From: Nostoc punctiforme PCC 73102
GTDB lineage: Bacteria > Cyanobacteriota > Cyanobacteriia > Cyanobacteriales > Nostocaceae
Assembly (NCBI RefSeq): GCF_000020025.1
Contig: NC_010628.1
Coordinates: forward strand, 630,001 to 662,000
Length of the DNA stretch: 32,000 bases
Direction: 5' to 3'
Positions 9,878 to 24,159 of this stretch are shown here, in pieces (position 1 is the stretch's first letter; each line of letters opens with the position of its first letter). Both the position numbers and the translations under genes were made by a program. A model generated the notes under the pieces. It did not search any database. It was not told the DNA's origin and saw nothing but the letters and a program-made list of their open reading frames with translations.

Positions 9878-9891
9878 GAATTTAAAATTAG

Positions 9892-10100: not shown

Positions 10101-11499
10101 CTTAACCCTGTTGTGTCACTTTAGGCAGAGGAAAAATAGAAATCAGGGTCAGTCAGGGATATAAAAGTAGGATAGGTAAGGTAATAAACAACAGATTGGA
10201 GTTTAGCAAATCCCAAAGATAAATGAGGAATAGGAAAAACTGAAAGCCAAGGCTGAATTAAATTAAATAGGGTAAAAGGTTGAAGGATGAGACGGAGATT
10301 ATTGAGAATATTCTTCCAACCTTTACCATTATCCCACCTCTGATGTGAAGCAAATGTTGATTGAGAATCTAGGGGATAAGGGCGCAGAGATTCTGAATGA
10401 AGACTAACCATTAAGTAGGCGCTACAAATAATCTCCCACCACCGTTCAATATCTTCATAGCAAGTAAAACGATAATCTGCCCAACCTAACTGATTCTTAC
10501 TTTGTTTTAAACCATACTCAACCCATGTCCTAAAGCCATAGAAATTCCCAACTTCTCTTGGTGTAATGTCTGGGTATTTACTCATTACATACCAGGTAGA
10601 GTTTCCAGGTAAGTTAAGAGTGTCTGTAGTAATTTGCCAATACCTATGATTGCTACGTTTGCCATGTATTATTTCTCTAATAAACCGATTCTCACTACTT
10701 AAGTCAGAGAATACTCTTTTAAACTTATGCCAGTTTAAATATTGAGTATACTGACCTTTAAGCAATGCTACAGAATGGTTTGAGCGAATTGCTACTAGAT
10801 AATTTAAATCTAATTCATCTAATACGGGTATAAAATTTGTGCTACTCTCACCATATAAGCTATCTGCTAGTACCAAGTTGAATTTGAATCCCATTAACTG
10901 TAGCTTGCGTATTAGCATTGCCCCGATTTGAGGCTTAGTAAGATATTTGTCTCCTGGCTTTAATTTTTCTCGTGGCTTGTATACTTCAAACAGCAGTGGA
11001 AATGTCATTCCACAGAACATACCGTAAGCTGTGACTGCCACAACGCCATTCTCTACTTTTCCTAAATTGACTATGTACTGACGTTTCACATAATCTGTGG
11101 TATTACCTTTCTTTTTATCTCCTGTTTCATCAATAATTAAAATGATTGGTCTTCCTTTTAGTACCTCTAAAATTAGTTGTAATCGCAAAGCTCTTAACTG
11201 TTCTACTGACCATGATGGTGTAGTTAAGAAATGATGTAGTCCTTGATAGTTATCTAGCCCGACAATTTTCGCTATTTCAGGTAGACTTTTCCGTTTTAAA
11301 TCGGAAATACATCCTATATGTAGATATTTGAAAGCTTCAAAATTCCTAACATCTGAAAACAGGTTTTTATACCATAAGCAATATTCATCCACAAACTTGA
11401 CGGTTTTTATGGGTGAACGAGGCTCTACCATGCTTTATGTCTTGGTTCTAGGCTTTGTACATTATTATACTACCGCGATAGTGACACAAGAGGGTTAAG
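10101..11499 (-). mobile_element. Intact IS701/IS4-like insertion sequence (about 1.4 kb) with 19-bp terminal inverted repeats
   Basis: CTTAACCCTGTTGTGTCAC (10101-10119) matches the reverse complement of GTGACACAAGAGGGTTAAG (11481-11499) at 18 of 19 positions. The element encloses a single 436-aa transposase ORF. I could not define a target duplication. Confidence 0.8.
10121..11431 (-). CDS. DDE transposase (IS701-family-like)
   Basis: Candidate catalytic regions are LIIDETGDKKKG, LVLADSLYGES and WVEYGLKQSKNQLGWADY. The frame is uninterrupted between the IRs. Confidence 0.8.
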   Translation of the reverse strand: MVEPRSPIKTVKFVDEYCLWYKNLFSDVRNFEAFKYLHIGCISDLKRKSLPEIAKIVGLDNYQGLHHFLTTPSWSVEQLRALRLQLILEVLKGRPIILIIDETGDKKKGNTTDYVKRQYIVNLGKVENGVVAVTAYGMFCGMTFPLLFEVYKPREKLKPGDKYLTKPQIGAMLIRKLQLMGFKFNLVLADSLYGESSTNFIPVLDELDLNYLVAIRSNHSVALLKGQYTQYLNWHKFKRVFSDLSSENRFIREIIHGKRSNHRYWQITTDTLNLPGNSTWYVMSKYPDITPREVGNFYGFRTWVEYGLKQSKNQLGWADYRFTCYEDIERWWEIICSAYLMVSLHSESLRPYPLDSQSTFASHQRWDNGKGWKNILNNLRLILQPFTLFNLIQPWLSVFPIPHLSLGFAKLQSVVYYLTYPTFISLTDPDFYFSSA

Positions 11500-11509: not shown

Positions 11510-12619
11510 TTACACGGACGAGGAATACAGGACGGAATCTTGTTCAAAAGTAGTCTTTTCCAGTGACGAGCGATATTTATGTTCCGATTCCAAGATCGGG
11601 ATACAGGTAATTAACCACACTAAACCTGCGGCATAGCCAGCTGTCACATCAGTCAGCCAATGTACTCCAAGGTAGAGCCGACTAAAACCGATCGCAGCAA
11701 TCAAGAAAACAGTCAAGCCATAAATCCAAAAGCGCCATTCAGGAAACTGCTTTGCTAGAACATAACCAGTAAAACCGTAAATCACTATTGAAACCATTGC
11801 ATGGCCGCTAGGAAAACTGTGTTGGCCGACATTAATAATATGCTTCCACAGTGCTGGACGCGCTCTACCAAATAATATTTTCATTAAACAATTTAGCAAG
11901 ATTGCACCGACTCCAGCGATACCCAAGATAGTTGCTTGCCAGCGACGATTAGAATATAACGGACTAATAGCCAGCCCCAAAGAAGATAACAGCATTACTA
12001 GGGGATCGCCCATAAAAGTGATACCAAGCATGATGCGATCGCGCAGTGGTGTATGCAACTTCTGGATCGAGAGCAAAATGGCTTCGTCAAGATTATATGC
12101 GTACAACAGTGCAGTGCCACATACAAGGGCACAAACAACCGGAATAAGTTGACTGGCTGTTTGGTTTAATTGTCGCTGCATAGATATTTGAGACAGTACG
12201 GCTGAATCAAATATGTTTCGATTATTACCTCCAACGAACCCAATATTTTCTTTAGTGCCAAAGGAATGCAAGTTACTGTCTCCAATGACTGCGTTAGATC
12301 CAAGTGATTTACTAACTTTTTTCCGATAATCTAAGACAATTTCTTGGATAAGTGATGCGATGGTCGAAGACCCGCCTTTGGCGTTCGTATTTAAACTGTT
12401 ATCTGGATGAAAAATAACAAGCACATTCCCTGTGTAACTATTAGCACGAGCTTGCGAGATTATTTTGTGCTCTAATAATCTCGATTCAAGATATTTTTTG
12501 AGAGCTTCCGAATGATAAAGCCCATTTACTTTATATCTAGCTCTTCCCTTAACAGCAGTATGTATTGCTTGAACCCAATGGGTTTGATTAAGAAGTGTAT
12601 GACAGCGAGGAGTACCCAT
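11510..12619 (-). CDS. Fusion protein: N-terminal HMA-like domain variant plus a C-terminal PAP2-type (acid phosphatase/lipid phosphatase) membrane domain
   Basis: PAP2 signature motifs are KILFGRARP, SFPSGHA and SRLYLGVHWLTDV, set among about 6 TM helices. The N-terminus is VQAIHTAVKGRARYKVNGLYHSEALKKYLESRLLEHKIISQARANSYTGNVLVIF. It aligns with the PGRxRFR domains found in the neighbouring genes. Confidence 0.8.
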   Translation of the reverse strand: MGTPRCHTLLNQTHWVQAIHTAVKGRARYKVNGLYHSEALKKYLESRLLEHKIISQARANSYTGNVLVIFHPDNSLNTNAKGGSSTIASLIQEIVLDYRKKVSKSLGSNAVIGDSNLHSFGTKENIGFVGGNNRNIFDSAVLSQISMQRQLNQTASQLIPVVCALVCGTALLYAYNLDEAILLSIQKLHTPLRDRIMLGITFMGDPLVMLLSSLGLAISPLYSNRRWQATILGIAGVGAILLNCLMKILFGRARPALWKHIINVGQHSFPSGHAMVSIVIYGFTGYVLAKQFPEWRFWIYGLTVFLIAAIGFSRLYLGVHWLTDVTAGYAAGLVWLITCIPILESEHKYRSSLEKTTFEQDSVLYSSSV

Positions 12620-12862
12620 TTGTTATTGATAATAAAATGCTTAGATTGAAGGCTAGGTAAAAGACATTTTCATGAGTTATAGTAAATCCCAGTTTTTTAG
12701 AGCTAATTACTTTTAACCAGGAATCATTTTAATCGCTACTAAGTAAGTTGGCACAATAAAATCAAACTATGCAGATAAAAGTGAACTAGGCTAAAATTCT
12801 TATACTTATTGCCTGTTGCCTTATCCCAAAGACAATTATTTACGCTTACTTACTATTAGTAA

Positions 12863-13528
12863 CTATATAAGATTTGGTTCGCTGGCAGATTTCAGTTTCA
12901 AAGGCTGGGAATTCGCCTCGCCATTGCCTCGTAATCGCCATCGCTTGTTAGGCAAGATAAACATGGTGGCAGATTTCAACCTTTTAATTATGCTTCTTGA
13001 GGTAGAAAGCATCCGTTCCCAAATGTCTGTTCTAAACCTTCGATATACAAGAACATTACGTGCTTGGTTAATCTTGCGTGTATTATCAATTAAGTTTATT
13101 AAGGCATCAAAGATAGCCCCTACGATTGATTTTGCCATTACCTCTTTTGGCAGAACCACATCTTGAGCAGTTTGAATCAGATTAACCAGATGTTCGCGCA
13201 TTTGATTATCTGAAATTACACCTACTTTATAATTGATGACAATAGATGCAGCTTTTGGGTTAGCACGGACATTTGTAACTCTAGGATCGGATTCCATTGC
13301 TAATTTAAGTTGATTAGCATACTCAGTATCTCTGCCTAACAGAGGAATACGAAAACGAATCCGTCCAGGAATTGTATGGACAATGCTATAGAATATCTTT
13401 TGGGATGATGCTGCTTTCTTAGCTACGCTTTTAGTTGCTTTTTTTGGTGGTAAACGCAGGTTCATACTAGCAGTTTTGCCAGAATTAGACCGTTTTATAG
13501 AAGTCATCGTACTATTGTTTAATTTCAA
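12863..13528 (-). CDS. Protein with a single HMA2-like (PGRxRFR) domain and a basic C-terminal tail
   Basis: YSIVHTIPGRIRFRIPLLGRDTEYANQLKLAMESDPRVTNVRANPKAASIVINYKVGVISDNQMREHLVNLIQTA. The track start is a TTG at 13528. An in-frame ATG (complement of 13505-13507) is the more likely start. Confidence 0.7.
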   Translation of the reverse strand: MKLNNSTMTSIKRSNSGKTASMNLRLPPKKATKSVAKKAASSQKIFYSIVHTIPGRIRFRIPLLGRDTEYANQLKLAMESDPRVTNVRANPKAASIVINYKVGVISDNQMREHLVNLIQTAQDVVLPKEVMAKSIVGAIFDALINLIDNTRKINQARNVLVYRRFRTDIWERMLSTSRSIIKRLKSATMFILPNKRWRLRGNGEANSQPLKLKSASEPNLI

Positions 13529-14006
13529 AAAATAAAAAACGTAACCAGGCTGATAAACTTATCTATTGATGTTTTAAGAGAGCGCTTTATTGAACTGCAT
13601 TAACTTTACTCTAGTTATACCTATTTTTCTGAATGAAAAAATCTATCTCAGTAGTGAATCTAGTTCTCATTGCTATCAAGTTGATTAAGTTTATTTTATA
13701 CTGTGTTTATTTTTATTTACAGGGATTTAACCACAGAGGTTTATTGACATATAAGGAGTTTCATGTATTACGTTTGAGTTACTATACTCTCAAGTAGTAA
13801 CATCAAGGCTATGTATGAATTTACTGGATGACAGTATTACCCTGATTTCATGTAAGCCTTGCTTATTTATTTTATCAAAACATGATTCAGGAGTCATAAG
13901 TCAAAATTTAGAATGAATTTTGACCTAAAAAGCGGATAGCGCAGCGTCTCATAGAGAGCGTCTTGATCATGACTTCTGAATTCTTCTTCAATTAGTTTCC
14001 AGGTAT

Positions 14007-16361
14007 GTGTTTATGCAGCAAGGGTTAATGTTACTAATTCAACTGGTACTAGAGTTTGCACCTGTTGTTGCAGAGCTAGTACAAAATAGAAATAAATCCA
14101 GTTTAGGTCTGAGTAAATATGAACCGATAGAAGCAATTCCCGAAATACTCAAAGTTTTTAATCTTTCAAATAAAAAAAGCGGTTATGTTGAAGATTTTGA
14201 AAAAGAAAGAATTTTTCAACAGCAATTAGTAGCCGATAATCATCAAACGCGATTAAAAATAGCCGCACAAGAGCGAGAAACAGCGCTTAAGTTACCAGAA
14301 GTCAATAAGATTATTGATAGCTGGCCCTTAAGATTATACCCTTCACAAATTTTAGACCACACCAATTATGGACACACTCCACTTAAAATTTTTATCGCTC
14401 CTCCGCAAGTAGATTTTGACCAATTTGGCGATCGTAGAGATGAAAATATTTCTCAAATTGAGTTAATGTTAGCTGAAGGATTAAGAGATTTTCTCAATAA
14501 ACATTACTCTTTACATAGTCAAGTTAGACCAACAGAGTTATTGGCAGGAGCCTGGGATAGTAAGCGTTTTCACAGTGAATCAAGTATTAAAGTTCTGTTT
14601 GGAATGTTGAAAACAGAGCCAAGTTTGATTTTAGAGTCAGAAAATGATGGAGATTATTTAAATTTTAGGATTGCCTACTGGGGTTTAGAGCAAGATAATT
14701 ATTATTATAAAACAATTGCTCGCTTACCTTACCGAGAAATTCTAGAAGAATCTGCTAAAAGGCGGGCATTAGAATGGAAGAAAATTAGAGATGAACTTGT
14801 GGCATTAGGAGAAAAATTAGAGGAAGTTAATCAGCTTGGAAAAGATAATTTGATAAATTTAGAAATTTTAGAAAAGGTAGAAAAATGGCATGAAAAAGGA
14901 ATTGATATTAGTAAGTTATCTTTACAATATCAAGTCAATCGTCAGGATTATGAAAAACTTTGCCAGGTTTTGATTACCTACCACTGTTTGGTTGCAGGTT
15001 GGGTAGCAGATATTTACCACCTGGTCGATCGTGGTGTACCTCCGCTACTACCAGAGTTGCTGCCGAGTTTGCTGTCAGATACTTTTGATTTACAATCAGT
15101 AGGGGTTATTGCCTCTGGTTACAAACAAGTTTACCAAGCTCTGGAAAATGAGCGCTGTTACTGGATTCCAGAATTGGCTTTACAATTAGCCCAGAGTTTA
15201 TGCCATTTAAGCGATGCCTACGACGGTAAACTACGCTCTTGGGCAAAGGAACAGCTAAATTATTCTGTGAGTACATGGTTACAACTACGCCAAGTATCAC
15301 CACACGATTCTCCTAACTTGCTTCAGGCAATGCAATCAGCCGTCAGCGTTAAAGATGAGGAATATGTAAAAAAGTTAAGAGAATATTTTGTCGCGGTGGG
15401 TGATACTCAGAGTATTGCTGATGTTGATGAAATTTTGAATCGCATTGCCAACCTCAAACACCAAGTAACAGTACAACATATCTTTCTCAGCCATACCCTA
15501 ACTGGACATTCAGAAAAAGTGACATCTGTCGCCATTAGTCCTGATTCTGAAACTTTAGTTAGCGGCAGTGCAGATAAAACCATCAAAGTATGGAATCTTA
15601 AGACTGGTAAACTTATCCGCACTCTCACAGAAGATTTAGGCAAAATTTCCTCTGTTGCAATTAGTCCTGATGGACATTATTTTGCTGTTGGTATTTGTCA
15701 ACACCCCAGAAGTAATGTCAAAGTATGGAATCTCAATTCTGACAAACTCCTTCACACTCTGTTAGGACATCAAAAACCGGTTAACTGCATCGCAATCAGT
15801 CCTGACGGGCAATTTCTTGCCAGTGGTAGTAATAAAATCAAAATTTGGAATTTGCATAAAGGCGATCGCATTTCTACCCTTTGGCATTCATTCACAGTTA
15901 ATGCTGCTGCTATCAGCCCCGATGGTACAATCCTTGCTAGTGGCAGTTCTGACAACAAAATTAGGCTGTGGAACCCACACACGGGAGATCCATTACGCAC
16001 CCTCAACGGACATTCAGGTGAGATAAAATCAGTAATCATCAGTCCTGATGGAGAAATTCTCTTTAGCGCTAGTGCAGACAAAACTATCAAAATTTGGCAT
16101 TTAACTACAGGCAAAGTGTTACATACCTTGACTGGACATTTAGAAGAGGTAAGATCCTTGGCTGTTAGTCCTGATGGAGAAATTCTCTTTAGCGGTAGCA
16201 CAGACAAAACCATCAAAATTTGGCATTTGCAGACGGGAGAGTTACTGCAAACTATCACAGAACACTCAGGGACAGTAAACTCTATTGCTATTAGCCATGA
16301 TGGTCAATTTTTGGCTAGTGCTAGTTCTGATAAAACCATCAAAATTTGGCAGATAAATTAA
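14007..16361 (+). CDS. WD40 (7-blade) protein with an unassigned ~490-aa N-terminal module
   Basis: From about aa 497 there are seven repeats of the form GH..V.S(V/I)AISPDG..L(A/F)SGS.DKTIK(I/V)W(N/H)L. The N-terminal module has no NTPase P-loop. It contains an alternating beta/alpha-looking segment (PLKIFIAPP...ELMLAEGLRDFLNKHY...ELLAGAW...SLILESE...YLNFRIAYWG). GTG at 14007; in-frame ATG at 14013. Confidence 0.85.
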   Translation: MFMQQGLMLLIQLVLEFAPVVAELVQNRNKSSLGLSKYEPIEAIPEILKVFNLSNKKSGYVEDFEKERIFQQQLVADNHQTRLKIAAQERETALKLPEVNKIIDSWPLRLYPSQILDHTNYGHTPLKIFIAPPQVDFDQFGDRRDENISQIELMLAEGLRDFLNKHYSLHSQVRPTELLAGAWDSKRFHSESSIKVLFGMLKTEPSLILESENDGDYLNFRIAYWGLEQDNYYYKTIARLPYREILEESAKRRALEWKKIRDELVALGEKLEEVNQLGKDNLINLEILEKVEKWHEKGIDISKLSLQYQVNRQDYEKLCQVLITYHCLVAGWVADIYHLVDRGVPPLLPELLPSLLSDTFDLQSVGVIASGYKQVYQALENERCYWIPELALQLAQSLCHLSDAYDGKLRSWAKEQLNYSVSTWLQLRQVSPHDSPNLLQAMQSAVSVKDEEYVKKLREYFVAVGDTQSIADVDEILNRIANLKHQVTVQHIFLSHTLTGHSEKVTSVAISPDSETLVSGSADKTIKVWNLKTGKLIRTLTEDLGKISSVAISPDGHYFAVGICQHPRSNVKVWNLNSDKLLHTLLGHQKPVNCIAISPDGQFLASGSNKIKIWNLHKGDRISTLWHSFTVNAAAISPDGTILASGSSDNKIRLWNPHTGDPLRTLNGHSGEIKSVIISPDGEILFSASADKTIKIWHLTTGKVLHTLTGHLEEVRSLAVSPDGEILFSGSTDKTIKIWHLQTGELLQTITEHSGTVNSIAISHDGQFLASASSDKTIKIWQIN

Positions 16362-16370
16362 GCTTTTTAG

Positions 16371-16949
16371 TTACTTGTTTGCTGATTCTTCTTGGCTAGT
16401 TCCATGCAACTTAATAAAGCTGTCAAAAGCATACCATGCTAAAACATACCAAGGAATAACTTCTAACTGCAATCCTTTATTTAGTAATTGTCGCAGTGAA
16501 AGACTAGCTAATCCCAAAGGAAAAAGAATTCGCAGATCAAAAGCACCATGCGTTGACTGTTTAACACGCTGGTTTAAGTCAACAAGCGCAGATGATACTC
16601 CTGCTGCTGCCTCGGTATTACCCTCGGTAACATCAGCAAAAATTATGCCTAAATCTTTAAGCGTTGCTAGCACATTTTCTAGACTGCCATCTTTACCATC
16701 GTAATTCATAACAATACTGCCATGATAGACATTCGTCTTAACTTGAGTAATGTGAGAATTTGCTGACAAAGCGTTGGCGATGCGTTGCATTTTTTCTAGT
16801 TGACGATGGGAATGACCCACTCTCAACCGCAATCTTCCGGGAGTCGAACTTACAACTTTTGTAGATATAGGTTTTGGTGATGTCTTGAAGTTGTTTTTGT
16901 CTAGAATTTCCGGCATTTTATTGTAAGTGCTATAACCATTTGTCAACAT
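16371..16949 (-). CDS. HMA2-like (PGRxRLR) domain protein with a C-terminal hydrophobic hairpin
   Basis: VVSSTPGRLRLRVGHSHRQLEKMQRIANALSANSHITQVKTNVYHGSIVMNY, then DLRILFPLGLASLSLRQLL...IPWYVLAWYAFDSFI. The stop is 9 bp from the stop of the convergent WD40 gene. Confidence 0.7.
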   Translation of the reverse strand: MLTNGYSTYNKMPEILDKNNFKTSPKPISTKVVSSTPGRLRLRVGHSHRQLEKMQRIANALSANSHITQVKTNVYHGSIVMNYDGKDGSLENVLATLKDLGIIFADVTEGNTEAAAGVSSALVDLNQRVKQSTHGAFDLRILFPLGLASLSLRQLLNKGLQLEVIPWYVLAWYAFDSFIKLHGTSQEESANK

Positions 16950-17023
16950 ACAACTGCCTTTTTGACTTGTATGAAGGTGGATTCTTTGTTGTGAAAAACC
17001 TTATTTTTTAATATCTTGCATTA

Positions 17024-17123
17024 GGGACTTCCAAACAATAAATTATTCTATTTTCGTAGGGTGCGTTACGGTATTTCACCTAACGCACCTTACTAGTTTT
17101 ATATTTTTGTAATTGGAAGTCCC
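17024..17123. repeat. Nested inverted repeat in the intergenic spacer between the 101-aa (DUF5132-like) and 192-aa genes
   Basis: The outer repeat is a perfect 11 bp: GGGACTTCCAA (17024-17034) and TTGGAAGTCCC (17113-17123). The inner repeat is 13 bp: GTAGGGTGCGTTA (17056-17068) and TAACGCACCTTAC (17081-17093), with one G:T position. Confidence 0.5.
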
Positions 17124-17162
17124 ATTTGGCGAACAATTTAACTTGCTAATGGGCAAATGAAA

Positions 17163-17468
17163 TTACGCACCATTATCGGCGACATCCGCATTGGTGGCAC
17201 TAGCTTCAAATACGGGCGTTTCTTTTTCATCAGCGAGTTCAGCTCTGGCTTCGGCTACCATGTCTTCCCAGGTTTCTCCCATTTCTGCAATGGTTCCCTT
17301 GCTTCTTTCATAAAGACCAATTCCGCCTTTGATGACTGACTTGACTAAGGGTTTACCAACTCCAGCGACAATCGGCAATAAAACAGGTGCTAAAAGTACT
17401 GCACCAATTCCGACTATAATACCGGGAGCGCCTGCATCTTCAACAAAATCACTAATTTTAGGTGCCAT
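17163..17468 (-). CDS. Small membrane protein, DUF5132-like (101 aa)
   Basis: GAPGIIVGIGAVLLAPVLLPIVAGVGKPLVKSVIKGGIGLYE followed by an acidic tail (EDMVAEARAELADEKE). This resembles the DUF5132 family as I recall it. A strong SD (AGGAGG) lies about 8 nt upstream of the ATG. Confidence 0.65.
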   Translation of the reverse strand: MAPKISDFVEDAGAPGIIVGIGAVLLAPVLLPIVAGVGKPLVKSVIKGGIGLYERSKGTIAEMGETWEDMVAEARAELADEKETPVFEASATNADVADNGA

Positions 17469-17539
17469 ATTTAATTTCCTCCTACTTGATTAAGAAATCC
17501 TGGAAAGCTTTTTAAGGTACTCTGCTCGGCATAGTTGTA

Positions 17540-19792
17540 TCATCTTGCCGATGGTAGAGTTTTATGTTGAGGACTTTTAAGAATTGGACGCAAACCGTTG
17601 ACTCCAGCAACTACGGTTGAGCCATTATTGACTACCGTTGCAGCTAAGGGGTTAAGACCAAAGAAAACGGCGATCGCTAATGCTGCTAAATTAGGAACAG
17701 CAACAATTCCTGTGTTTTGCCGAATCAATTGCTTGGCTTGACGAGCGATCGCGATCGCTTCTAATAAACCATACAAGTCATTCTGCATTAACACTAAGTC
17801 TGCTGTCTCGCGGGCAATCTCAGAACTGTTGGCAAAGGAGACGGAAACATCGGCGTAGGCTAAAGCTGGCGAATCATTGATCCCATCGCCTACAAATGCA
17901 ACTGTCTTACCTTGTTCGTGCAGTTGGCGGACAACTGTTGCCTTTTGTTCAGGAAAAGCTTCGGCGTGAGTATGCGTTGGCAAAATACCAAGTTGAGCAG
18001 CTACAGCAGTAGCAGTTCGCTTGTTATCGCCGGTTAACATGTGAATTTCTACACCTTCGACCGTTGAAAGTGCTGTGATGACTTCCCGGCTTTCGGGACG
18101 AAGAAGGTCACTATATTTAATAATACCTTGAAGTTCACCGTTGCTGGCTACATAAATCGCCGAATTTGCAGATTTTTGCTGACCATTTAGTGCTTCGGTA
18201 TCAATGCCACTGGAGCGCAAAAAGCGATCGCTCCCAACATAAACTGTCTCTCCATCAATCTGAGCTTGCACGCCCAAACCTAGTTGATAGTCCCACTTAC
18301 TACGCGGCAAAATTTCCACTTGCTCTGCTTCGGCATAGCGAACAATTGCTTCTGCTACTGGATGAGTTAAACGCTGTTCGGCGGCAGCTGCCAATTCCAA
18401 CACCCGTAATCTTGAGGTTGCTGGATTGAGACTTTCCACACTGACTACATCAACTTCTCCCTTAGTCAGTGTCCCCGTTTTATCAAAAACTATGGTATCA
18501 ACTTCTGCTAGTTGTTCTAACGCCCGTCCGCTACGGATAAGAATCCCCCGTCGTGCAGCATAAGTTAATGCTGCTAAAACTGTTGTGGGGACGGAGACTC
18601 GAATACCTGTAGCAAAGTCTAGAGTTAAAACGCTGGCTGTCCGTGAAGGGTTACGGGTTGCGGCAAATACTGCCCCACCAAGTAACAAAGTTGGCACAAC
18701 AGCTTTTTGAGCAAATTTCGTCGCATAATTCTCCATCCGCGTATCGTGGATAGGTGCTTCTTGCATTAACTTAATGCTCTGTCCGGCGCGGGTATCATTG
18801 CCGATCCATTCGGCAACAATATAAATTCGTCCTTCTCGTACCAGCGTTGAGGCGAAAACTGGTTGTCCTTTTTTCTTCAAGACTGGCATCGACTCGCCAG
18901 TTAATTTTTGCTCATCTAGCAGGGCTTTACCTCGCAAAATGCTACCATCAACCGGCACTTGCTCGCCAGGGTAAACAATTACTGTATCGCCACGCTGCAC
19001 ATCTTGAATGGGAATTTGTTGCTTTGCGCCATTGCGTTCCACCCAAACAAATTGCCCCAGAGAACTAAGTAAATCTAGAGTTTGTTGAGCAGAAGAACGA
19101 GCCGTGCGATCGCGGATATTTTCACCCACTTCAATTAAACCGAGCATCAGCGATGGTGTAAGAAATTGCCCTTGGAAGGTAGTAATAGCGATCGCCATAA
19201 AATCCAAAAAGTCAATATTCAATTTTCGCTCTACCCTAATACCTTCCCATGCTCGTTGGACAACAGGTAAAGTAGCTAGAGCGATTGGAAGCACAACTAT
19301 CAAAGGTGGGATCGGTAATCCTAACGGCCCTCCTAGCACTGCTAAAGCAGTGGCAACAGCAGAGAGTTGTAAACCTGGCCAAGATGGCTCTTTTTCGGTT
19401 TCCGATAAAGATGTAGAGTTTTTGAGAACGACTACTTCACTTGCAGCCTGAATCAAATCGTGAAGGTGCGATCGCATCTTCGCATCGGAAACTTTATCAG
19501 ATTTATAAGTAACTGCAACTGACATTGCCGCAGGCTTGACACGAACATTCTTCACTAGCGCATCTGCTGTTAGCAATACTTCGAGACGCTTGGCATAATC
19601 TGCATCACAGCGTAAACGAGGTAGGCGAAACCGCAGCCTTCCCGGAGTTGTATGGACAATGCTGTAGGTAACGTTAGGGAACTCTCTTTGAGAATGTCCA
19701 TTAGTGTCAGTTAAAGAAGCTTTTCCATTCCCTTCCAACACAGTGAATTGAGATTTTGGAGGTGATGAGAGTTGCAGTGCTACTTTTGCCAT
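17540..19792 (-). CDS. P-type ATPase with P1B-like architecture, an N-terminal HMA2-like domain and non-canonical transmembrane ligand motifs
   Basis: Core motifs present: TGES, DKTGT (18470-18484), LTHPVAEAI, MLTGDN and GDGINDSPAL. The N-terminal domain is YSIVHTTPGRLRFRLPRLRCDADYAKRLE.... The TM4 position reads SVPT (18584-18595) instead of CPC/SPC. The last TM reads NNGSTVVAGVNGLR (17615-17629 = NNGST) instead of the HEG.T type. Confidence 0.9.
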   Translation of the reverse strand: MAKVALQLSSPPKSQFTVLEGNGKASLTDTNGHSQREFPNVTYSIVHTTPGRLRFRLPRLRCDADYAKRLEVLLTADALVKNVRVKPAAMSVAVTYKSDKVSDAKMRSHLHDLIQAASEVVVLKNSTSLSETEKEPSWPGLQLSAVATALAVLGGPLGLPIPPLIVVLPIALATLPVVQRAWEGIRVERKLNIDFLDFMAIAITTFQGQFLTPSLMLGLIEVGENIRDRTARSSAQQTLDLLSSLGQFVWVERNGAKQQIPIQDVQRGDTVIVYPGEQVPVDGSILRGKALLDEQKLTGESMPVLKKKGQPVFASTLVREGRIYIVAEWIGNDTRAGQSIKLMQEAPIHDTRMENYATKFAQKAVVPTLLLGGAVFAATRNPSRTASVLTLDFATGIRVSVPTTVLAALTYAARRGILIRSGRALEQLAEVDTIVFDKTGTLTKGEVDVVSVESLNPATSRLRVLELAAAAEQRLTHPVAEAIVRYAEAEQVEILPRSKWDYQLGLGVQAQIDGETVYVGSDRFLRSSGIDTEALNGQQKSANSAIYVASNGELQGIIKYSDLLRPESREVITALSTVEGVEIHMLTGDNKRTATAVAAQLGILPTHTHAEAFPEQKATVVRQLHEQGKTVAFVGDGINDSPALAYADVSVSFANSSEIARETADLVLMQNDLYGLLEAIAIARQAKQLIRQNTGIVAVPNLAALAIAVFFGLNPLAATVVNNGSTVVAGVNGLRPILKSPQHKTLPSAR

Positions 19793-19934
19793 TACTTTTC
19801 TTTAATCCAAAATTGTTACACTTCGATGAAAATCACACTCTCGGCTGGGGTATAGAGAGCAAATTAGCCACCAATCCTGCGAGATTGATTAGCTATCAAC
19901 AGTTTGGTTATTTATCATTTGCTGGATTTCTGAG

Positions 19935-20774
19935 CTAATTTATCGCTGTGGCGGGATCATTTACAGATTCAATTAGACTGGCTAGATGAGATATTGCTGC
20001 TGACAAAAAGCTTTGCACTCGCTTCTGAGAATCCCGCATCATTCCAGTTTTATAGGTAATGACAACTGATCTCGCAGCGCTATTAACTCGCTCACTGGTA
20101 ACTGTCGAATCTGATTTGAGTAATGCCTCTAACCGTTGGACATATTTGGGATCGCAGGCAATTCGAGGCACACGAAACCGCACTCTTCCGGGAATTGCAT
20201 GAGCAATGCTATAAGCTACTTTTGCAGGTTTTTTTGGTTGTTGAATTACAGAATGAGCCGAAGATACCGAATTGTTTTTAGTCTTAGAGACTGATGCATC
20301 CGCAGAAGATAAAGAGAATGTTGCTGATTTCTGCTTCTGTGGTTGCATTGTTGGCTTTCTATCCTGCCTGTCTTCTGTTGCCACTAACGCTGAGTATGGT
20401 TTCAATTGGTTTGCAGTTGCTAGTACTACTTTTTCATTACCAGCCAACTGAATCAAATTAGCCAAATGCGATCGCATATCAACATCTGACACTACATCAG
20501 ATTTATAGGTAATGGCAATTGACCCTACCATAGTATTATTAACTTGCCGATCTATTACCAAAGGCTCATTAGCAAGCAAGGCAACAAGACGTTCCACATA
20601 TTTTGGATCTTCGCAAATCTGAGGGATGCAAAACGCCACTTGTCCAGGAAATGCACAAATAATGCTATGTACTACCCTTGAAGGCGGCGTTGCTGGGTAA
20701 TTAATCTTGTCTGTGACTGTTGGCTCTGGTTTTTTGTCTAAATCTGCTATCGATTCTAAATTTAAAACAGCCAT
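19935..20774 (-). CDS. Protein with two tandem HMA2-like domains (279 aa)
   Basis: Domain 1 is HSIICAFPGQVAFCIPQICEDPKYVERLVALL...GSIAITY. Domain 2 is YSIAHAIPGRVRFRVPRIACDPKYVQRLEALL...RSVVITY. A GGAGG SD lies upstream of the ATG. Confidence 0.7.
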   Translation of the reverse strand: MAVLNLESIADLDKKPEPTVTDKINYPATPPSRVVHSIICAFPGQVAFCIPQICEDPKYVERLVALLANEPLVIDRQVNNTMVGSIAITYKSDVVSDVDMRSHLANLIQLAGNEKVVLATANQLKPYSALVATEDRQDRKPTMQPQKQKSATFSLSSADASVSKTKNNSVSSAHSVIQQPKKPAKVAYSIAHAIPGRVRFRVPRIACDPKYVQRLEALLKSDSTVTSERVNSAARSVVITYKTGMMRDSQKRVQSFLSAAISHLASLIESVNDPATAIN

Positions 20775-20811
20775 AATTCCCCTCCAGTATTCCGCAATTT
20801 GAAACTGTATA

Positions 20812-21900
20812 TTAGGTTTCCAAGGGTAAGTTCGCCATAATGCCTAATGAGAAAAACATCGCAGGCGGTTTTAAGTTAGTCCACAAACTGGATAACTCTG
20901 AATTTATTTCGCTTGCTGTTGTTGAGTTGATAACTTCAGGAGTCTGACTAACATTTAAACTTGTTTGATGTGACGTTGTTGCGTCTGTAATTTGATTCAT
21001 CTGACTAACTTCTTGGAGGGGTTGGTTAGCCGTTGTAATTGGCTGCATTGGTGGGTTTGTCTCCAACGCTAATTCCATCAAACTCACCCAATAAGATAAT
21101 GGAATATCATGAGACTGATAAGCGATCGCGATCGATGCTGCATCAAAATTCATCCGCACACTTGTAACTTCAGCATCGGTTTTCACTATTCTCTCAAGTC
21201 GCCGCCCATAAGCTCGATCTTGAGCGATTTTTGGCACATGGAAGCGAATACGTCCGCTAATTGCATGGATTACGCTATAGTCAATCTTTGCAGCTGCTGC
21301 CACCTCGCTAGCCTTCTTAAGATTATTTGTTGACTTTTCTTGTTGGATAGTAGATTGGCATTCCTCTTTTGATAATTCCGATATCGCAGAACTGGTATTA
21401 TTACCGTCGTTTTTTTCTGATGTCGGAACTTGAGAGCCAAGATAACCAATTACACCACGGGTTGCATCCGCCGCAATCATATAAACTGGAATCGATACCC
21501 AGCCATGAATTCCTAACCCTCCTGTTACCGCCAAGCCTGTCATCATCGGAATTAAGGAAACACCCTGCTCTTTCCAAAATAAAGGCGATTTCCAAGCTGC
21601 AAAGGGATCGGTTTTGCTAGGTGAATCAGATGAAGCTTGCGGCTGTTGGATCTCAATATCGGATTTTAGCGCCAAAATTTGCGGTAATGAGAGCTTGTCT
21701 TCATTAAAATTAACTACCAAACTGCCAGTTTGCCCATTCACAGCAACTTCCGTCACTCCCTCTAAAGAGCGTAAATCTTGAGCTATGCTGTCTAATATTG
21801 AGTTCAAACTACTGTCAGTGGTGCGGAATCGCACGCGCCCAGTAGTTACATGAACTATTTGCAACCCACCAGAGGGCTGTAACTTCGTTGACTGTGCCAT
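20812..21900 (-). CDS. Protein with two HMA2-like domains separated by a hydrophobic segment (362 aa). First gene of the minus-strand cluster.
   Basis: Domain 1 is LQIVHVTTGRVRFRTTDSS...GSLVVNF. The hydrophobic region is GVSLIPMMTGLAVTGGLGIHGWVSIPVYMIAADA. Domain 2 is YSVIHAISGRIRFHVPKIAQDRAYGRRLERIV...ASIAIAY. Confidence 0.7.
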   Translation of the reverse strand: MAQSTKLQPSGGLQIVHVTTGRVRFRTTDSSLNSILDSIAQDLRSLEGVTEVAVNGQTGSLVVNFNEDKLSLPQILALKSDIEIQQPQASSDSPSKTDPFAAWKSPLFWKEQGVSLIPMMTGLAVTGGLGIHGWVSIPVYMIAADATRGVIGYLGSQVPTSEKNDGNNTSSAISELSKEECQSTIQQEKSTNNLKKASEVAAAAKIDYSVIHAISGRIRFHVPKIAQDRAYGRRLERIVKTDAEVTSVRMNFDAASIAIAYQSHDIPLSYWVSLMELALETNPPMQPITTANQPLQEVSQMNQITDATTSHQTSLNVSQTPEVINSTTASEINSELSSLWTNLKPPAMFFSLGIMANLPLET

Positions 21901-24153: not shown

Positions 24154-24159
24154 TCATTT

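What the first reader, a model, noticed from the sequence alone, without database searches (positions are those of the whole stretch)
11510..21900. Eight paralogous cysteine-less HMA-like (PGRxRFR) domains in six genes around a P-type ATPase: candidate uncharacterised membrane system
Directly visible: one ~70-aa module recurs eight times on the minus strand.
- PAP2 fusion: AIHTAVKGRARYKVNGLYHSEALKKYLE...GNVLVIF
- 221-aa protein: YSIVHTIPGRIRFRIPLLGRDTEYANQL...ASIVINY
- 192-aa protein: VVSSTPGRLRLRVGHSHRQLEKMQRI...GSIVMNY
- ATPase N-terminus: YSIVHTTPGRLRFRLPRLRCDADYAKRL...MSVAVTY
- 279-aa protein, domain 1: HSIICAFPGQVAFCIPQICEDPKYVERL...GSIAITY
- 279-aa protein, domain 2: YSIAHAIPGRVRFRVPRIACDPKYVQRL...RSVVITY
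- 362-aa protein, domain 1: LQIVHVTTGRVRFRTTDSSLNSILDSI...GSLVVNF
- 362-aa protein, domain 2: YSVIHAISGRIRFHVPKIAQDRAYGRRL...ASIAIAY

The spacing of strand, helix, strand and strand fits a ferredoxin-like HMA fold. However, the metal-binding GMxCxxC loop is replaced by a basic PGRxRFR motif.

Genes 20812-21900, 19935-20774, 17540-19792, 17163-17468 and 16371-16949 are co-oriented with short spacers and good SD sequences, so they look like one operon.

By analogy with CopZ/Atx1 docking onto CopA N-terminal HMA domains, the free multi-domain proteins could be docking, regulatory or cargo-delivery partners of the ATPase. That is inference only. I believe databases label such domains 'HMA2' without an assigned function. 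I know of no experimental characterisation of this gene set.
Basis: partly seen in the sequence, partly recalled or inferred. Interest (0 to 1): 0.85.

Follow-up and report, generated by a model that had tools for sequence, protein, structure and literature searches.

The report
CoBaHMA gene cluster around atypical ATPase
A conserved cyanobacterial gene cluster encodes a heavy-metal-type pump that has lost its metal-binding cysteines, several membrane proteins sharing one positively charged, cysteine-free 'CoBaHMA' domain, and a small acidic helper protein; the domain family is already published, but what the pump moves and how the helpers act is untested.

Summary
The window is Nostoc punctiforme PCC 73102. 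It carries exactly eight homologous ~75-aa domains in six minus-strand genes, and Pfam calls them HMA_2 (PF19991).

This domain family is already published as CoBaHMA (Benzerara 2022; Gaschignard 2024). It is an HMA-superfamily fold with an extra strand β0, a conserved His, an RxRxR strand and no CxxC. The domain itself is therefore not new.

Three things do not appear in the papers I could read:
1. The five-gene core (p362, p279, ATPase, DUF5132, p192) is syntenic in 76 of 84 cyanobacterial loci. A reduced module (DUF5132-like protein, ~180-aa CoBaHMA protein, CoBaHMA-ATPase) recurs in Melainabacteria and unrelated metagenomic contigs.
2. The ATPase keeps every catalytic motif, but TM4 reads D-F-A-T-G-I-R where CPC should be, and TM6 reads NNGST where HEGST should be. 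This signature defines a large clade next to the uncharacterised P1B-6 'SCA' pumps and argues against Cu/Zn/Cd-type transport.
3. DUF5132 has one TM helix with GxxxG and a helix with invariant Ala-Glu repeats. This parallels mycobacterial PacL scaffolds, which bind the Cys-less N-terminal domain of CtpC.

The PAP2 and 221-aa genes are a Nostoc-subclade add-on, separated from the core by a conserved convergent WD40 gene. Function is untested. I found only omics-level data (an NtcA ChIP peak and induction after nitrogen step-down in Anabaena).

The parts
20812..21900 (-). p362 (ACC79313), first gene of the core. It has a CoBaHMA domain 1 of the p192 type (21631-21876), a Gly-rich hydrophobic stretch, and a CoBaHMA domain 2 of the core type (21034-21291).
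   Evidence: ORF. HMA_2 at 59.9 bits with two stretches. Domain 1 is closest to the p192 domain (32% identity, E 5e-7). An orthologue sits upstream of the ATPase in 80 of 84 loci. Accession.
19935..20774 (-). p279 (ACC79312), two tandem CoBaHMA domains (20424-20681 and 19968-20225). Domain 1 has lost the basic signature (PGQVAFC), has no His and has net charge -2.
   Evidence: Orthologues carry 1-4 domains, and the gene was not detected in some loci.
17540..19792 (-). P1B-lineage P-type ATPase (ACC79311, 750 aa) with an N-terminal CoBaHMA domain (19421-19678). TGES298, DKTGT437, HP477, TGDN587 and GDGIND635 are all intact.
   Evidence: TIGR01525 at 525.7 bits against a cutoff of 346. Closest solved structure is A. 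fulgidus CopA, E 4.5e-74. Motif positions. The domain model has pLDDT 88.8.
18599..18619 (-). TM4 signature D392-F-A-T-G-I-R398. F-A-T occupies the positions of the CPC metal-binding motif of CopA.
   Evidence: Alignment to CopA. D, G and R are invariant and T is at least 90% conserved across a diverse 41-sequence alignment. 99 of 150 representatives share D-x-x-[TS]-G-x-[RK]. TM4 is almost invariant in 84 orthologues.
17615..17629 (-). TM6 motif N722-N-G-S-T, which aligns to the H-E-G-S-T metal-ligand motif of the P1B-4 pump sCoaT.
   Evidence: phmmer alignment to 7qbz. The clade consensus is N/S-N-G-S/T.
17163..17468 (-). DUF5132 protein (ACC79310, 101 aa). It has one TM helix with G16xxxG20, a cytosolic helix with A61E62, E65, D69, A72E73 and A76E77, and an acidic tail (net charge -8 over residues 55-101).
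   Evidence: PF17195 at 84.4 bits. Invariant residues come from an alignment that reaches 29-37% identity. Charge. The gene is adjacent to the ATPase in 76 of 84 cyanobacterial loci and in 5 of 7 distant loci.
16371..16949 (-). p192 (ACC79309). A CoBaHMA domain (16626-16871) is followed by three helices. The last two form a near-invariant hairpin (GLQxExIPWYVLAWYAFDSFIKLH). It covers the whole Pfam HMA_2 model.
   Evidence: HMA_2 at 51.3 bits, profile positions 9-150 of 154. Invariant residues. AlphaFold2 secondary structure. Proteins of ~175-186 aa with this architecture sit next to the ATPase in distant loci.
14007..16361 (+). WD40-repeat protein (784 aa) with an unannotated 480-aa N-terminus. 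It is convergent with p192 (9-nt gap). It is a conserved neighbour and its role is unknown.
   Evidence: Pfam shows only WD40 families, and the N-terminal part has no hit. A homologue of the N-terminal part was found in 32 of the fetched loci, including Rivularia, Hydrococcus, Rhizonema and Chroococcidiopsidaceae.
12863..13528 (-). p221 (ACC79307, annotated as 214 aa). A core-type CoBaHMA domain (13145-13402) is followed by a very basic C-terminal region (whole-protein net charge +26).
   Evidence: HMA_2 at 47.5 bits. Charge. Present downstream of the core, together with the PAP2 gene, in only 23 Nostoc/Tolypothrix-type loci.
11510..12619 (-). CoBaHMA-PAP2 fusion (ACC79306). A divergent CoBaHMA domain (12335-12577) is followed by a membrane PAP2 phosphatase with intact motifs (KILFGRARP, PSGH, SRLYLGVHWLTD).
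   Evidence: PAP2 at 79.9 bits and HMA_2 at 29.4 bits. Catalytic motifs and five hydrophobic segments.

Best explanation
**What it is.** The five core genes (p362, p279, ATPase, DUF5132, p192) form a conserved module built around a catalytically competent P-type ATPase of the P1B lineage. The pump's membrane ion site has been rebuilt. TM4 reads D-F-A-T-G-I-R where CPC should be, and TM6 reads N-N-G-S-T where H-E-G-S-T should be. It therefore offers only oxygen ligands plus an Asp/Arg pair.

**Likely substrate (inferred).** The pump most likely moves something other than Cu, Zn, Cd or Co. A hard cation such as Ca2+, Mg2+ or Mn2+, or H+, are my guesses.

**Proposed mechanism (inferred).** The pump's N-terminal CoBaHMA domain is a regulatory or docking module, not a metal-binding one. 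The small DUF5132 protein would be its membrane-anchored partner. The invariant Ala-Glu helix and acidic tail of DUF5132 would dock onto the conserved basic face of CoBaHMA domains (His in β0, RxRxR in β1). Its GxxxG transmembrane helix would drive self-association. Together these would stabilise, cluster or gate the pump. This is how PacL proteins use Glu/Ala repeats and a TM GxxG motif with the Cys-less N-terminal domain of CtpC in M. tuberculosis. The free CoBaHMA proteins (p192, p362, p279) would be further clients or competitors on the same scaffold. p192 and p362 would be held at the membrane by hydrophobic hairpins.

**Shown.** Domain homology and fold class, the motif replacements, conservation of the residues named, and gene co-occurrence.

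**Inferred.** Every physical interaction, membrane topology, the substrate and co-transcription.
For: **Domains.**
- All eight are homologous, and Pfam calls them HMA_2.
- The CoBaHMA signature (β0, His, RxRxR, no CxxC) is present.
- H47, R52, R54 and R56 are invariant in 84 ATPase orthologues.
- R39, R41 and R43 are invariant in p192 homologues.
- Six of the eight domains have net charge +2 to +9.

**Pump.**
- All catalytic motifs are intact, and the P1B subfamily model scores 525.7 bits.
- CPC aligns to F-A-T, and HEGST aligns to NNGST.
- The D-x-x-[TS]-G-x-[RK] class covers 99 of the 150 closest 50%-identity representatives; 75 of those have a detectable CoBaHMA N-terminus.
- TM4 is the most conserved stretch of the protein.

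**Partnership.**
- ATPase > DUF5132 > p192 are co-oriented in 76 of 84 loci.
- A DUF5132 or DUF5132-like gene plus a ~175-186-aa HMA_2 gene flank the pump in L088 (42% ATPase identity), L089 (a Melainabacteria MAG), L091 and L094.
- In L090 the flanking genes are a DUF5132-like protein (sub-threshold, E 3.4e-4) and a 171-aa protein with only a weak hit to classical HMA (PF00403), not HMA_2.
- A DUF5132-like protein (18.6 bits against a shuffle maximum of 1.8) lies directly upstream of an SCA-class pump in Thioalkalivibrio.
- The invariant residues of DUF5132 are G20 (with G16), A61, E62, D69, A72, E73 and E77; E65 and A76 are at least 90% conserved.

**Analogy and context.**
- PacL has a single TM helix, EA repeats that bind the ATPase's MBD, and a TM GxxG motif; CtpC is P1B-6-like with a Cys-less MBD (PMC13460109).
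- DUF5132 and CoBaHMA genes are co-expressed with ccyA and cax in Microcystis (bioRxiv 10.1101/2024.07.07.602159).
Against: - No interaction was tested. The tools offer no multimer prediction.
- DUF5132 shows no detectable sequence similarity to DUF1490/PacL in hmmscan even at E<=10. The PacL parallel is an analogy of layout, not shown homology.
- Acidic Ala/Glu-rich helices are common in small membrane proteins.
- The published hypothesis for the basic patch is anionic-lipid binding, not protein binding.
- Two of seven distant loci show no recognisable DUF5132.
- Two of the eight domains are net acidic, and one has lost the Arg motif.
- Foldseek E-values never fell below 1e-3.
- The link between CtpC's MBD and CoBaHMA rests on a sequence recalled from memory that I could not verify.
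Confidence: 0.42

Rival explanations
1. Lipid-sensing model (the hypothesis published for the family). The basic face of each CoBaHMA domain binds anionic lipid head groups such as PG, PA or SQDG. The domains would then tether or regulate their membrane partners (the pump and the PAP2 lipid phosphatase) according to membrane lipid composition. In this model DUF5132 is an unrelated small membrane protein or a lipid-packing factor.
For: The hypothesis is attributed to Gaschignard et al. 2024. The basic patch is conserved. One copy is fused to an intact PAP2 lipid phosphatase, and the very basic p221 follows the core in Nostoc. Several copies are attached to hydrophobic hairpins and so would sit at the membrane surface.
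Against: This model does not explain why DUF5132's invariant residues are acidic Ala-Glu repeats, or why DUF5132 travels with the pump across phyla. The PAP2 fusion is confined to a subclade. No lipid-binding data exist. The model is not exclusive of the best explanation.
Confidence: 0.25
2. First reader's model. The free CoBaHMA proteins are CopZ/Atx1-like cargo chaperones that deliver a metal ion to the pump's N-terminal domain.
For: The fold class is the same as CopZ and the CopA MBDs. p362 domain 1 gives weak hits to classical HMA (22.6 bits, below the cutoff of 24.8) and to CopZ models. Gene adjacency to a P1B-type pump resembles copZ-copA. A conserved His lies in β0.
Against: There is no CxxC and no conserved Cys. 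The pump's TM site lacks Cys, His and Met ligands. Several of the 'chaperones' appear membrane-anchored and multi-domain. One His plus three Arg residues is not a plausible soft-metal site.
Confidence: 0.06
3. Calcium or biomineralisation-related module. The pump is a Ca2+ (or other alkaline-earth) transporter, and the CoBaHMA and DUF5132 proteins are the same accessory set that accompanies calcyanin and the Ca2+/H+ exchanger in cyanobacteria forming intracellular amorphous CaCO3. In Nostocales it would serve Ca2+ homeostasis during nitrogen stress.
For: CoBaHMA is the N-terminal domain of the most widespread calcyanin type. In Microcystis, two DUF5132 genes and two CoBaHMA genes flank ccyA and cax, and one DUF5132 gene and the CoBaHMA-DUF454 gene are co-expressed with ccyA. 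The membrane site has only oxygen ligands. In Anabaena, NtcA binds 184-213 bp upstream of the p362 orthologue all2006, and all2003 rises 4.0-fold 12 h after N step-down. Cyanothece PCC 7425, which carries ccyA and which I recall as an iACC-former, has a relative of the pump.
Against: The cluster is present in most Nostocales, which are not known to form iACC. No ccyA or cax gene lies in the window. The oxygen-ligand argument is generic. An MgtE gene and RND/CzcB genes, not Ca genes, lie near two distant relatives. I found no NtcA box upstream of p362 in this window.
Confidence: 0.15
4. The ATPase no longer transports an ion. It would be an ATP-driven regulator or assembly factor, and the membrane site would be a structural Asp-Arg salt bridge.
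For: The near-universal TM4 proline of the ion-site motif is lost, and an Asp/Arg pair is invariant in TM4. About 13 close representatives have degenerate DKTGT motifs, so non-catalytic paralogues are tolerated in this clade.
Against: The window's protein keeps every catalytic motif. TM4, TM5 and TM6 are the most conserved parts of the protein, which is what a working transport site would show.
Confidence: 0.08

Closest known systems
CoBaHMA domain family (Pfam HMA_2, PF19991), first seen as the N-terminal domain of W-type calcyanin (Benzerara et al. 2022, PMC8890360; Gaschignard et al. 2024, Proteins, doi 10.1002/prot.26668, not readable here)
   Same: Ferredoxin-like HMA-superfamily fold with an extra N-terminal strand β0. 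A His in β0, basic residues in β1 and β2, and no CxxC. The family occurs as free proteins and fused to membrane transport and lipid-metabolism proteins.
   Different: Here there are eight copies in one neighbourhood in two sequence subtypes: the core type, and the p192 type followed by a hairpin. One copy has lost the basic signature. There is no GlyZip (calcyanin) domain in the window.
P1B-6 ('SCA' motif) P-type ATPases, classified from sequence and biochemically uncharacterised
   Same: Nearest relatives in the representative search. They share the N-terminal CoBaHMA domain (19 of 20), an invariant Asp two residues before the motif, a basic residue (Lys, against Arg here) six residues after that Asp, and Asn as the second residue of the TM6 motif.
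   Different: TM4 here reads D-F-A-T-G-I-R, not D-Y-S-C-A-L-K, so the last Cys is gone. TM6 reads N-N, not H-N. The window's pump meets none of the published TM4 motifs (CPC, SPC, PCP, SCA, CSC) listed.
PacL (DUF1490)-CtpC/CtpG/CtpV 'effluxosomes' of Mycobacterium tuberculosis (review PMC13460109)
   Same: A small single-TM protein encoded next to a P1B ATPase whose N-terminal domain lacks CxxC. The small protein has a cytosolic Glu/Ala repeat helix and a disordered tail, plus a small-residue motif in its TM helix. CtpC clusters with P1B-6.
   Different: There is no detectable sequence similarity between DUF5132 and DUF1490. In Nostocales DUF5132 lies downstream of the pump, though it is upstream in L088, L089 and L094. 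CtpC keeps a CPC motif and exports Zn. PacL systems have no free HMA-like proteins. No interaction data exist for DUF5132.
CopZ/Atx1-CopA metallochaperone-pump pairs
   Same: A free HMA-fold protein encoded beside a P1B pump that carries the same fold at its N-terminus.
   Different: There are no metal-ligand cysteines in either the domains or the pump's membrane site. The free proteins are multi-domain or have hydrophobic hairpins. The conserved surface is basic.
ccyA neighbourhood of Microcystis aeruginosa PCC 7806 (bioRxiv 10.1101/2024.07.07.602159)
   Same: DUF5132 proteins, a CoBaHMA protein with a DUF454-like C-terminal hairpin (the p192 architecture) and a further CoBaHMA protein are encoded together.
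   Different: In Microcystis the partners are calcyanin and a Ca2+/H+ exchanger, with no P-type ATPase. Here the partner is the atypical P1B-like pump, with no calcyanin.

Membership tests
CoBaHMA / Pfam HMA_2 (PF19991) | Match to the HMA_2 profile | tested here: met
   All six proteins hit the profile. p362 scores 59.9, p192 51.3, p221 47.5 and p279 39.5 bits, all above the cutoff of 30. PAP2 (29.4) and the ATPase (25.2) fall just below it. Precomputed Pfam annotations list PF19991 for most ATPase orthologues.
CoBaHMA / Pfam HMA_2 (PF19991) | Ferredoxin-like HMA-superfamily fold | tested here: met
   The AlphaFold2 model of the ATPase domain has pLDDT 88.8 and pTM 0.76. The p192 domain has pLDDT of about 80. 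Foldseek TM-scores are 0.5-0.71 against MerP, CopZ, ATP7A/B, ZiaA, RAN1 and PacS domains and the YajR YAM domain. All E-values are above 1e-3, so this shows the fold class, not a statistically decisive match.
CoBaHMA / Pfam HMA_2 (PF19991) | Additional N-terminal strand β0 | tested here: met
   Both models start with two consecutive strands before helix 1: E6-11 and E14-18 in the ATPase domain, and E28-36 and E39-44 in p192. KipI (2kwa), which the family's authors used to model β0, is among the structural matches.
CoBaHMA / Pfam HMA_2 (PF19991) | Conserved His in β0 and basic residues in β1 and β2 | tested here: met
   An RxRxR-type β1 is present in 7 of 8 domains; p279 domain 1 reads QVAFC instead. 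The β0 His is present in 6 of 8, being absent from p192 and p279 domain 1. H47, R52, R54 and R56 are invariant in 84 ATPase orthologues.
CoBaHMA / Pfam HMA_2 (PF19991) | Absence of the CxxC metal site | tested here: met
   No CxxC occurs in any of the eight domains, and the Cys residues present are not conserved.
P1B-type (heavy-metal) P-type ATPase | P-type catalytic core (DKTGT, TGES, TGDN, GDGIND) plus the P1B-specific HP motif and overall P1B sequence signature | tested here: met
   TGES298, DKTGT437, HP477, TGDN587 and GDGIND635 are all present. TIGR01525 scores 525.7 bits against a cutoff of 346. The best solved relatives are CopA, ZntA and sCoaT.
P1B-type (heavy-metal) P-type ATPase | Cys-containing tripeptide in TM4 (CPC, CPH, SPC, PCP, SCA or CSC) forming the membrane metal site | tested here: not met
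   CPC of CopA aligns to F393-A394-T395. There is no Cys, His or Pro at the motif. The motif list is taken from PMC13460109.
P1B-type (heavy-metal) P-type ATPase | Cytosolic metal-binding domain with CxxC or a His-rich stretch | tested here: not met
   The N-terminal domain is CoBaHMA. It has no CxxC and no His-rich tail.
P1B-6 subfamily | SCA in TM4 and H-N-x-(S/T) in TM6 | tested here: not met
   The window has A-T-G at the SCA positions and N-N-G-S in TM6. The 20 SCA representatives all have H-N. The flanking Asp and the basic residue are shared.
PacL (DUF1490) P-ATPase-associated scaffold | Match to DUF1490 | tested here: not met
   hmmscan at E<=10 returned only DUF5132 for the window's protein. 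Distant relatives also gave weak DUF6110 and YtxH hits.
PacL (DUF1490) P-ATPase-associated scaffold | Single TM segment with a small-residue motif, a cytosolic Glu/Ala repeat region and a disordered tail, encoded beside a P1B ATPase | tested here: met
   There is one hydrophobic segment with G16xxxG20. A61, E62, D69, A72, E73 and E77 are invariant, E65 and A76 are at least 90% conserved, and the tail is acidic. The gene is adjacent to the pump in 76 of 84 loci and in 5 of 7 distant ones. This is resemblance of layout only.
PacL (DUF1490) P-ATPase-associated scaffold | Direct binding to the ATPase's N-terminal domain, and requirement for pump stability and clustering | not testable with these tools
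   This needs multimer prediction or experiments.
PAP2 lipid phosphate phosphatase (the 369-aa fusion) | Three catalytic motifs: Kx6RP, PSGH and SRx5Hx3D | tested here: met
   KILFGRARP at 247, PSGH at 270 and SRLYLGVHWLTD at 313. PF01569 scores 79.9 bits.

The most novel reading that the evidence does not exclude
A large, overlooked branch of the 'heavy-metal' P1B ATPases has switched from soft-metal to hard-cation or proton transport. Its signature is TM4 D-x-x-T-G-x-R and TM6 N-N-G-S/T, and it is found in cyanobacteria, Melainabacteria and other bacteria. On this reading, the pump runs as a membrane platform in which a PacL-like acidic scaffold (DUF5132) binds the basic face of CoBaHMA domains on the pump and on free adaptor proteins. 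The same accessory set would serve calcyanin and the Ca2+/H+ exchanger in cyanobacteria that make intracellular carbonate. That would tie the module to Ca2+ handling and, in heterocyst formers, to NtcA-controlled nitrogen stress.
Probability: 0.15. Interest if true: 0.85.

Novelty: new variant of a known kind. Interest (0 to 1): 0.6.

Why it matters
P1B ATPases are classified, and their substrates predicted, from the Cys-containing TM4 motif. This clade keeps the whole catalytic machinery but has no Cys, His or Pro at that site. It is nevertheless annotated everywhere as a 'Cu2+-exporting', 'cadmium-translocating' or 'heavy metal translocating' ATPase, which is probably wrong.

Identifying its substrate would extend the chemistry known for the P1B lineage and correct many annotations.

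The repeated co-occurrence of the pump with CoBaHMA proteins and DUF5132 gives the first concrete, testable partner set for two families of unknown function. It links them to two active questions. One is how PacL-type scaffolds work with Cys-less N-terminal domains of P-type ATPases. The other is what the CoBaHMA domain of calcyanin does in intracellular carbonate biomineralisation.

The orthologues in the genetically tractable Anabaena PCC 7120 (all2002-all2006) and in N. punctiforme make the experiments straightforward.

Tried and rejected
- **Rfam.** A scan of the window found no RNA family at gathering score, and there are no tRNAs.
- **Promoters and terminators.** The consensus scan found no more sites than shuffled sequence and gave no operon boundaries.
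- **NtcA boxes.** GTAN8TAC occurs 5 times in the window against 5 expected by chance. None lies upstream of p362. A similar-looking element about 350 nt upstream lacks the GTA triplet. The Anabaena NtcA result therefore cannot be transferred to this strain.
- **The primary CoBaHMA paper** (doi 10.1002/prot.26668) is not in the library. What I say about it comes from papers citing it and from my memory of its abstract.
- **First genome-scan query.** A 41-sequence TM4 alignment was too diverse for pattern extraction. The narrower query worked but returned mostly Nostocales, so I sampled distant loci one at a time instead.
- **Is M. tuberculosis CtpC's N-terminal domain a CoBaHMA domain?** A sequence I recalled as Rv3270 scores as a P1B ATPase. 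Its N-terminus gives HMA_2 at 22.9 bits and 26.9 bits against the window's own domain profile. I use it only as a lead.
- **A CPC-class relative with a CoBaHMA N-terminus (P0349)** has no DUF5132 or PacL neighbour and sits beside znuABC. The small-partner rule therefore does not hold for every CoBaHMA-ATPase.
- **Literature searches** for Anabaena and guessed N. punctiforme locus tags found no functional study.
- **p362's hydrophobic middle region.** BLASTP aligned only the CoBaHMA domain of p362 to p192, not the hydrophobic hairpin. The idea that p362's N-terminal half is a complete p192-type module is not established.
- **TM segments.** A simple hydropathy scan did not flag the p192 or p362 hairpins as classical TM segments. 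Their membrane insertion is inferred.

Full report
**1. What is in the sequence**

The window is from Nostoc punctiforme PCC 73102 (ATCC 29133). All seven predicted proteins match its deposited proteins exactly, or with one alternative start. They correspond to ACC79306, ACC79307 and ACC79309 to ACC79313.

Seven genes lie on the minus strand:
- a 362-aa protein (20812-21900)
- a 279-aa protein (19935-20774)
- a 750-aa P-type ATPase (17540-19792)
- a 101-aa DUF5132 protein (17163-17468)
- a 192-aa protein (16371-16949)
- a 221-aa ORF (12863-13528), annotated as 214 aa
- a 369-aa PAP2 fusion (11510-12619)

A plus-strand WD40 gene (14007-16361) lies between the 192-aa and 221-aa genes. Spacers within the five upstream genes are 37, 142, 71 and 213 nt.

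**2. The eight domains are real and homologous**

A profile built from any seven segments scores the eighth at 16-93 bits. The maximum over 1000 shuffles of each segment is 7-19 bits.

Five segments form a tight group at 30-51% identity: the ATPase, p221, both p279 domains and p362 domain 2. The p192, p362 domain 1 and PAP2 segments are divergent. A six-frame scan finds no ninth copy.

Pfam assigns HMA_2 (PF19991) to all six proteins. The small protein is DUF5132, and the ATPase has E1-E2_ATPase and Hydrolase domains.

The AlphaFold2 model of the ATPase's domain, built with the eight paralogues as its alignment, has pLDDT 88.8 and pTM 0.76. Its order is β-β-α-β-β-α. The p192 model shows β-β-α-β-β-α-β followed by three helices.

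Foldseek places both models with HMA domains (MerP, CopZ, ATP7A/B, ZiaA, RAN1, PacS), the YajR YAM domain and KipI-like folds, at TM-scores of about 0.5-0.7. E-values stay above 1e-3.

**3. The domain is a published family**

The calcyanin paper named the CoBaHMA family. It defined it by an HMA-superfamily fold without the two cysteines, an extra strand β0 carrying a conserved His, and basic residues in β1 and β2 (PMC8890360).

A later preprint equates Pfam HMA_2 with CoBaHMA. It cites Gaschignard et al. 2024 for the family description. Another preprint summarises the proposed role as regulatory, possibly through anionic lipids.

The window's domains meet this signature:
- RxRxR-type β1 in 7 of 8 domains
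- the β0 His in 6 of 8
- no CxxC in any
- His47, Arg52, Arg54 and Arg56 invariant in 84 ATPase orthologues

It is not the counterpart of the GMxCxxC loop, which would follow it.

**4. The cluster is conserved**

Around the orthologous ATPase, the order p362, (p279), ATPase, DUF5132, p192 appears in Trichormus variabilis, Fischerella PCC 9605 and a PCC 7120-type Anabaena genome. All genes are on one strand.

In a census of 84 loci, ATPase > DUF5132 > p192 is intact in 76. A p362-type gene lies upstream in 80. The exceptions are mostly short contigs.

The p279-type gene carries one to four domains, and it was not detected in some loci. p221 followed by PAP2 occurs downstream in only 23 Nostoc/Tolypothrix-type loci. 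In those loci they are always separated from p192 by about 2.7-3.1 kb holding the convergent WD40 gene.

The finding's span therefore holds a conserved five-gene core plus a lineage-specific pair.

**5. The module reaches beyond cyanobacteria**

I sampled distant relatives of the ATPase individually:
- A metagenomic contig at 42% ATPase identity carries DUF5132 > HMA_2 (178 aa) > HMA_2-ATPase, with a further HMA_2 gene on the opposite strand.
- A Melainabacteria MAG carries DUF5132 > HMA_2 (186 aa) > ATPase.
- Three more contigs carry a DUF5132-like small protein next to the pump. In two of them (L091, L094) it is accompanied by a ~175-180-aa HMA_2 protein. In the third (L090) the 171-aa neighbour hits only classical HMA, weakly, and the small protein lies downstream. 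The DUF5132-like hits in L090 and L091 fall below Pfam's threshold.
- Two loci are ambiguous.
- In Thioalkalivibrio, an SCA-class pump is surrounded by three free HMA_2 genes. The 101-aa protein directly upstream scores 18.6 bits against a DUF5132 profile, against a shuffle maximum of 1.8.

**6. The ATPase is the unusual part**

It is a P1B-lineage enzyme. TIGR01525 scores 525.7 bits, and the nearest solved structures are CopA, ZntA and sCoaT. TGES, DKTGT, HP, TGDN and GDGIND are all intact.

The membrane site differs from known P1B pumps:
- The CPC of CopA aligns to Phe393-Ala394-Thr395 within L-D-F-A-T-G-I-R-V-S-V-P-T.
- The HEGST of sCoaT aligns to Asn722-Asn723-Gly-Ser-Thr.

None of the TM4 motifs used to define P1B-1 to P1B-7 is present. 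That list (CPC, SPC, PCP, SCA, CSC) comes from PMC13460109.

Among the 150 closest 50%-identity representatives:
- 99 share D-x-x-[TS]-G-x-[RK] in TM4 and mostly N/S-N-G-S/T in TM6. Of these, 75 have a detectable CoBaHMA N-terminus, and some have two or three.
- 20 have D-Y-S-C-A-L-K with H-N in TM6, the P1B-6 'SCA' type. Of these, 19 have a CoBaHMA N-terminus.
- 3 have CPC.

The genome scan found 411 confirmed occurrences of DF[AGV]TGIRVS. TM4 is almost invariant across the 84 cyanobacterial orthologues. P1B-6 and P1B-7 pumps had not been examined biochemically as of 2016 and are still described as poorly understood.

From general coordination chemistry (my inference), a site made of Asp, Thr, Asn, Asn and Ser with a nearby Arg does not suit Cu+, Zn2+ or Cd2+. 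It would suit a hard cation or proton. The database names 'Cu2+-exporting' and 'cadmium-translocating' are therefore unlikely to be right.

**7. DUF5132 resembles a PacL-type partner**

In an alignment reaching 29-37% identity, the invariant residues are Gly20, Ala61, Glu62, Asp69, Ala72, Glu73 and Glu77. Gly16, Glu65 and Ala76 are at least 90% conserved, so the TM helix carries a GxxxG. The C-terminal 47 residues have net charge -8. Six of the eight CoBaHMA domains have net charge +2 to +9.

A 2026 review describes mycobacterial PacL proteins (DUF1490) this way:
- They have a single TM segment followed by Glu/Ala repeats, a disordered region and an optional metal-binding tail.
- The EA repeats bind the N-terminal domains of CtpC and CtpG, which lack CxxC.
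- A TM GxxG motif mediates PacL self-association.
- Without PacL the pumps are not stably accumulated.
- CtpC clusters with P1B-6.

The layout and genetic context of DUF5132 match this closely. I found no sequence similarity to DUF1490, so I claim functional analogy, not membership.

**8. Expression hints from Anabaena PCC 7120**

The orthologues are all2006 (p362 type), all2005, all2004 (ATPase), all2003 (DUF5132) and all2002 (p192 type). They sit next to all2007 (def) and all2008 (a serine protease).

An NtcA ChIP-seq study lists a high-ranking peak assigned to all2006 (PMC3898017). Its published sequence maps 184-213 bp upstream of the all2006-type start codon.

A comparative study lists all2003 among proteins specific to heterocyst-forming strains in its 58-genome set. 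[quoted passage not shown]

I found no NtcA box upstream of p362 in this window.

**9. How it most likely works**

I think the core is a pump-plus-scaffold module. The pump is an atypical P1B-lineage ATPase for a non-thiophilic substrate. Its CoBaHMA domain, and the CoBaHMA domains of membrane-tethered free proteins, would be engaged by the acidic Ala-Glu helix of DUF5132, and possibly also by anionic lipids. This would control pump stability, clustering or activity.

The co-occurrence, the conserved residues and the motif replacements are shown. The interactions and the substrate are inferred.

Rival explanations:
- Pure lipid sensing is the main rival and is compatible with the PAP2 fusion.
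- CopZ-like metal delivery is unlikely.
- A calcium link is suggested by calcyanin and by the Microcystis ccyA-cax neighbourhood, but nothing in this window supports it directly.

**10. Verdict**

The domain is already known as CoBaHMA.

The conserved module, the cysteine-free membrane site of a large ATPase clade and the PacL-like features of DUF5132 are not described in the papers I could read, and they are readily testable.

I rate it a new variant of a known kind, with interest 0.6.

Noticed in passing
window 14007-16361 (+): A 784-aa WD40-repeat protein whose first ~480 residues have no Pfam match. It is convergent with p192 (9-nt gap). It is conserved next to the cluster in more than 25 Nostoc/Tolypothrix loci and also in Rivularia, Hydrococcus, Rhizonema and a Chroococcidiopsidaceae MAG.
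   Followed up: partly
window 10121-11431 (-); also 2212-3107 (-): A DDE_5/DDE_Tnp_1 transposase lies 78 nt downstream of the PAP2 gene. A separate HTH_Tnp_4 ORF lies further upstream. Mobile elements therefore flank this end of the cluster.
   Followed up: no
representative proteins P0258, P0263, P0292, P0297, P0307, P0316, P0344, P0346, P0359, P0364 and others: About 13 close relatives of the ATPase have a degenerate phosphorylation motif (DKTAT, GKTGT, AKTGT, DQTAI, DCSVL, DHCDH) yet keep a CoBaHMA N-terminus. They are probably catalytically dead paralogues.
   Followed up: partly
window 20424-20681 (-) (p279 domain 1): This one copy of the domain has lost the basic signature (PGQVAFC instead of PGRxRFR) and the β0 His. 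It has gained three Cys and is net acidic. It is either a degenerate or a re-purposed copy.
   Followed up: partly
loci L003, L056, L065, L067, L073-L080: The gene equivalent to p279 carries one to four tandem CoBaHMA domains in different Nostocales (for example 440-460 aa with three or four). Domain number changes quickly.
   Followed up: partly
L086 4732-4761 (Anabaena PCC 7120-type genome): The NtcA-bound sequence published for 'all2006' maps 184-213 bp upstream of the p362 orthologue, inside the 3' end of def. all2003 (DUF5132) is reported 4-fold up 12 h after nitrogen step-down. No equivalent NtcA box was found in the N. punctiforme window.
   Followed up: yes
L092 (Thioalkalivibrio sp. 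XN8) 6406-11444; L091 8035-8412: Next to distant CoBaHMA-ATPases lie a protein with a MamC (magnetosome membrane protein) family hit and, in another contig, a PHA-granule-associated-region protein. These hint at links with intracellular inclusions. The MamC hit did not reappear in my own Pfam scan of that protein.
   Followed up: partly
L095 6001-11507: Two P-type ATPase genes lie in tandem, separated by a 52-aa DUF454 fragment (the hairpin type found at the C-terminus of p192-like proteins). An MgtE Mg2+ transporter and a Crp-family regulator are nearby.
   Followed up: no
protein cluster of P0250 (UniProt B8HU17, Cyanothece sp. PCC 7425): Cyanothece PCC 7425 carries the calcyanin gene ccyA; I recall it as a cyanobacterium that forms intracellular carbonate. 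It has a relative of the pump whose TM4 reads D-F-G-A-G-I-G, with no Arg. This is a different variant of the site.
   Followed up: no
window 22336-26545 (+): Divergent from the cluster is an ABC ATPase, an ABC-2 permease, a 558-aa ABC_transp_aux/DUF7088 protein and a DUF4340 protein. Together these are an accessory-protein-type ABC system of unknown substrate.
   Followed up: no
window 12863-13528 (-): The 221-aa ORF starts at a TTG. The deposited annotation (ACC79307) and 14 of the 15 cluster members listed are shorter: 12 are 214 aa (start at Met8) and two are 200 aa. The protein is extremely basic (net charge +26).
   Followed up: partly
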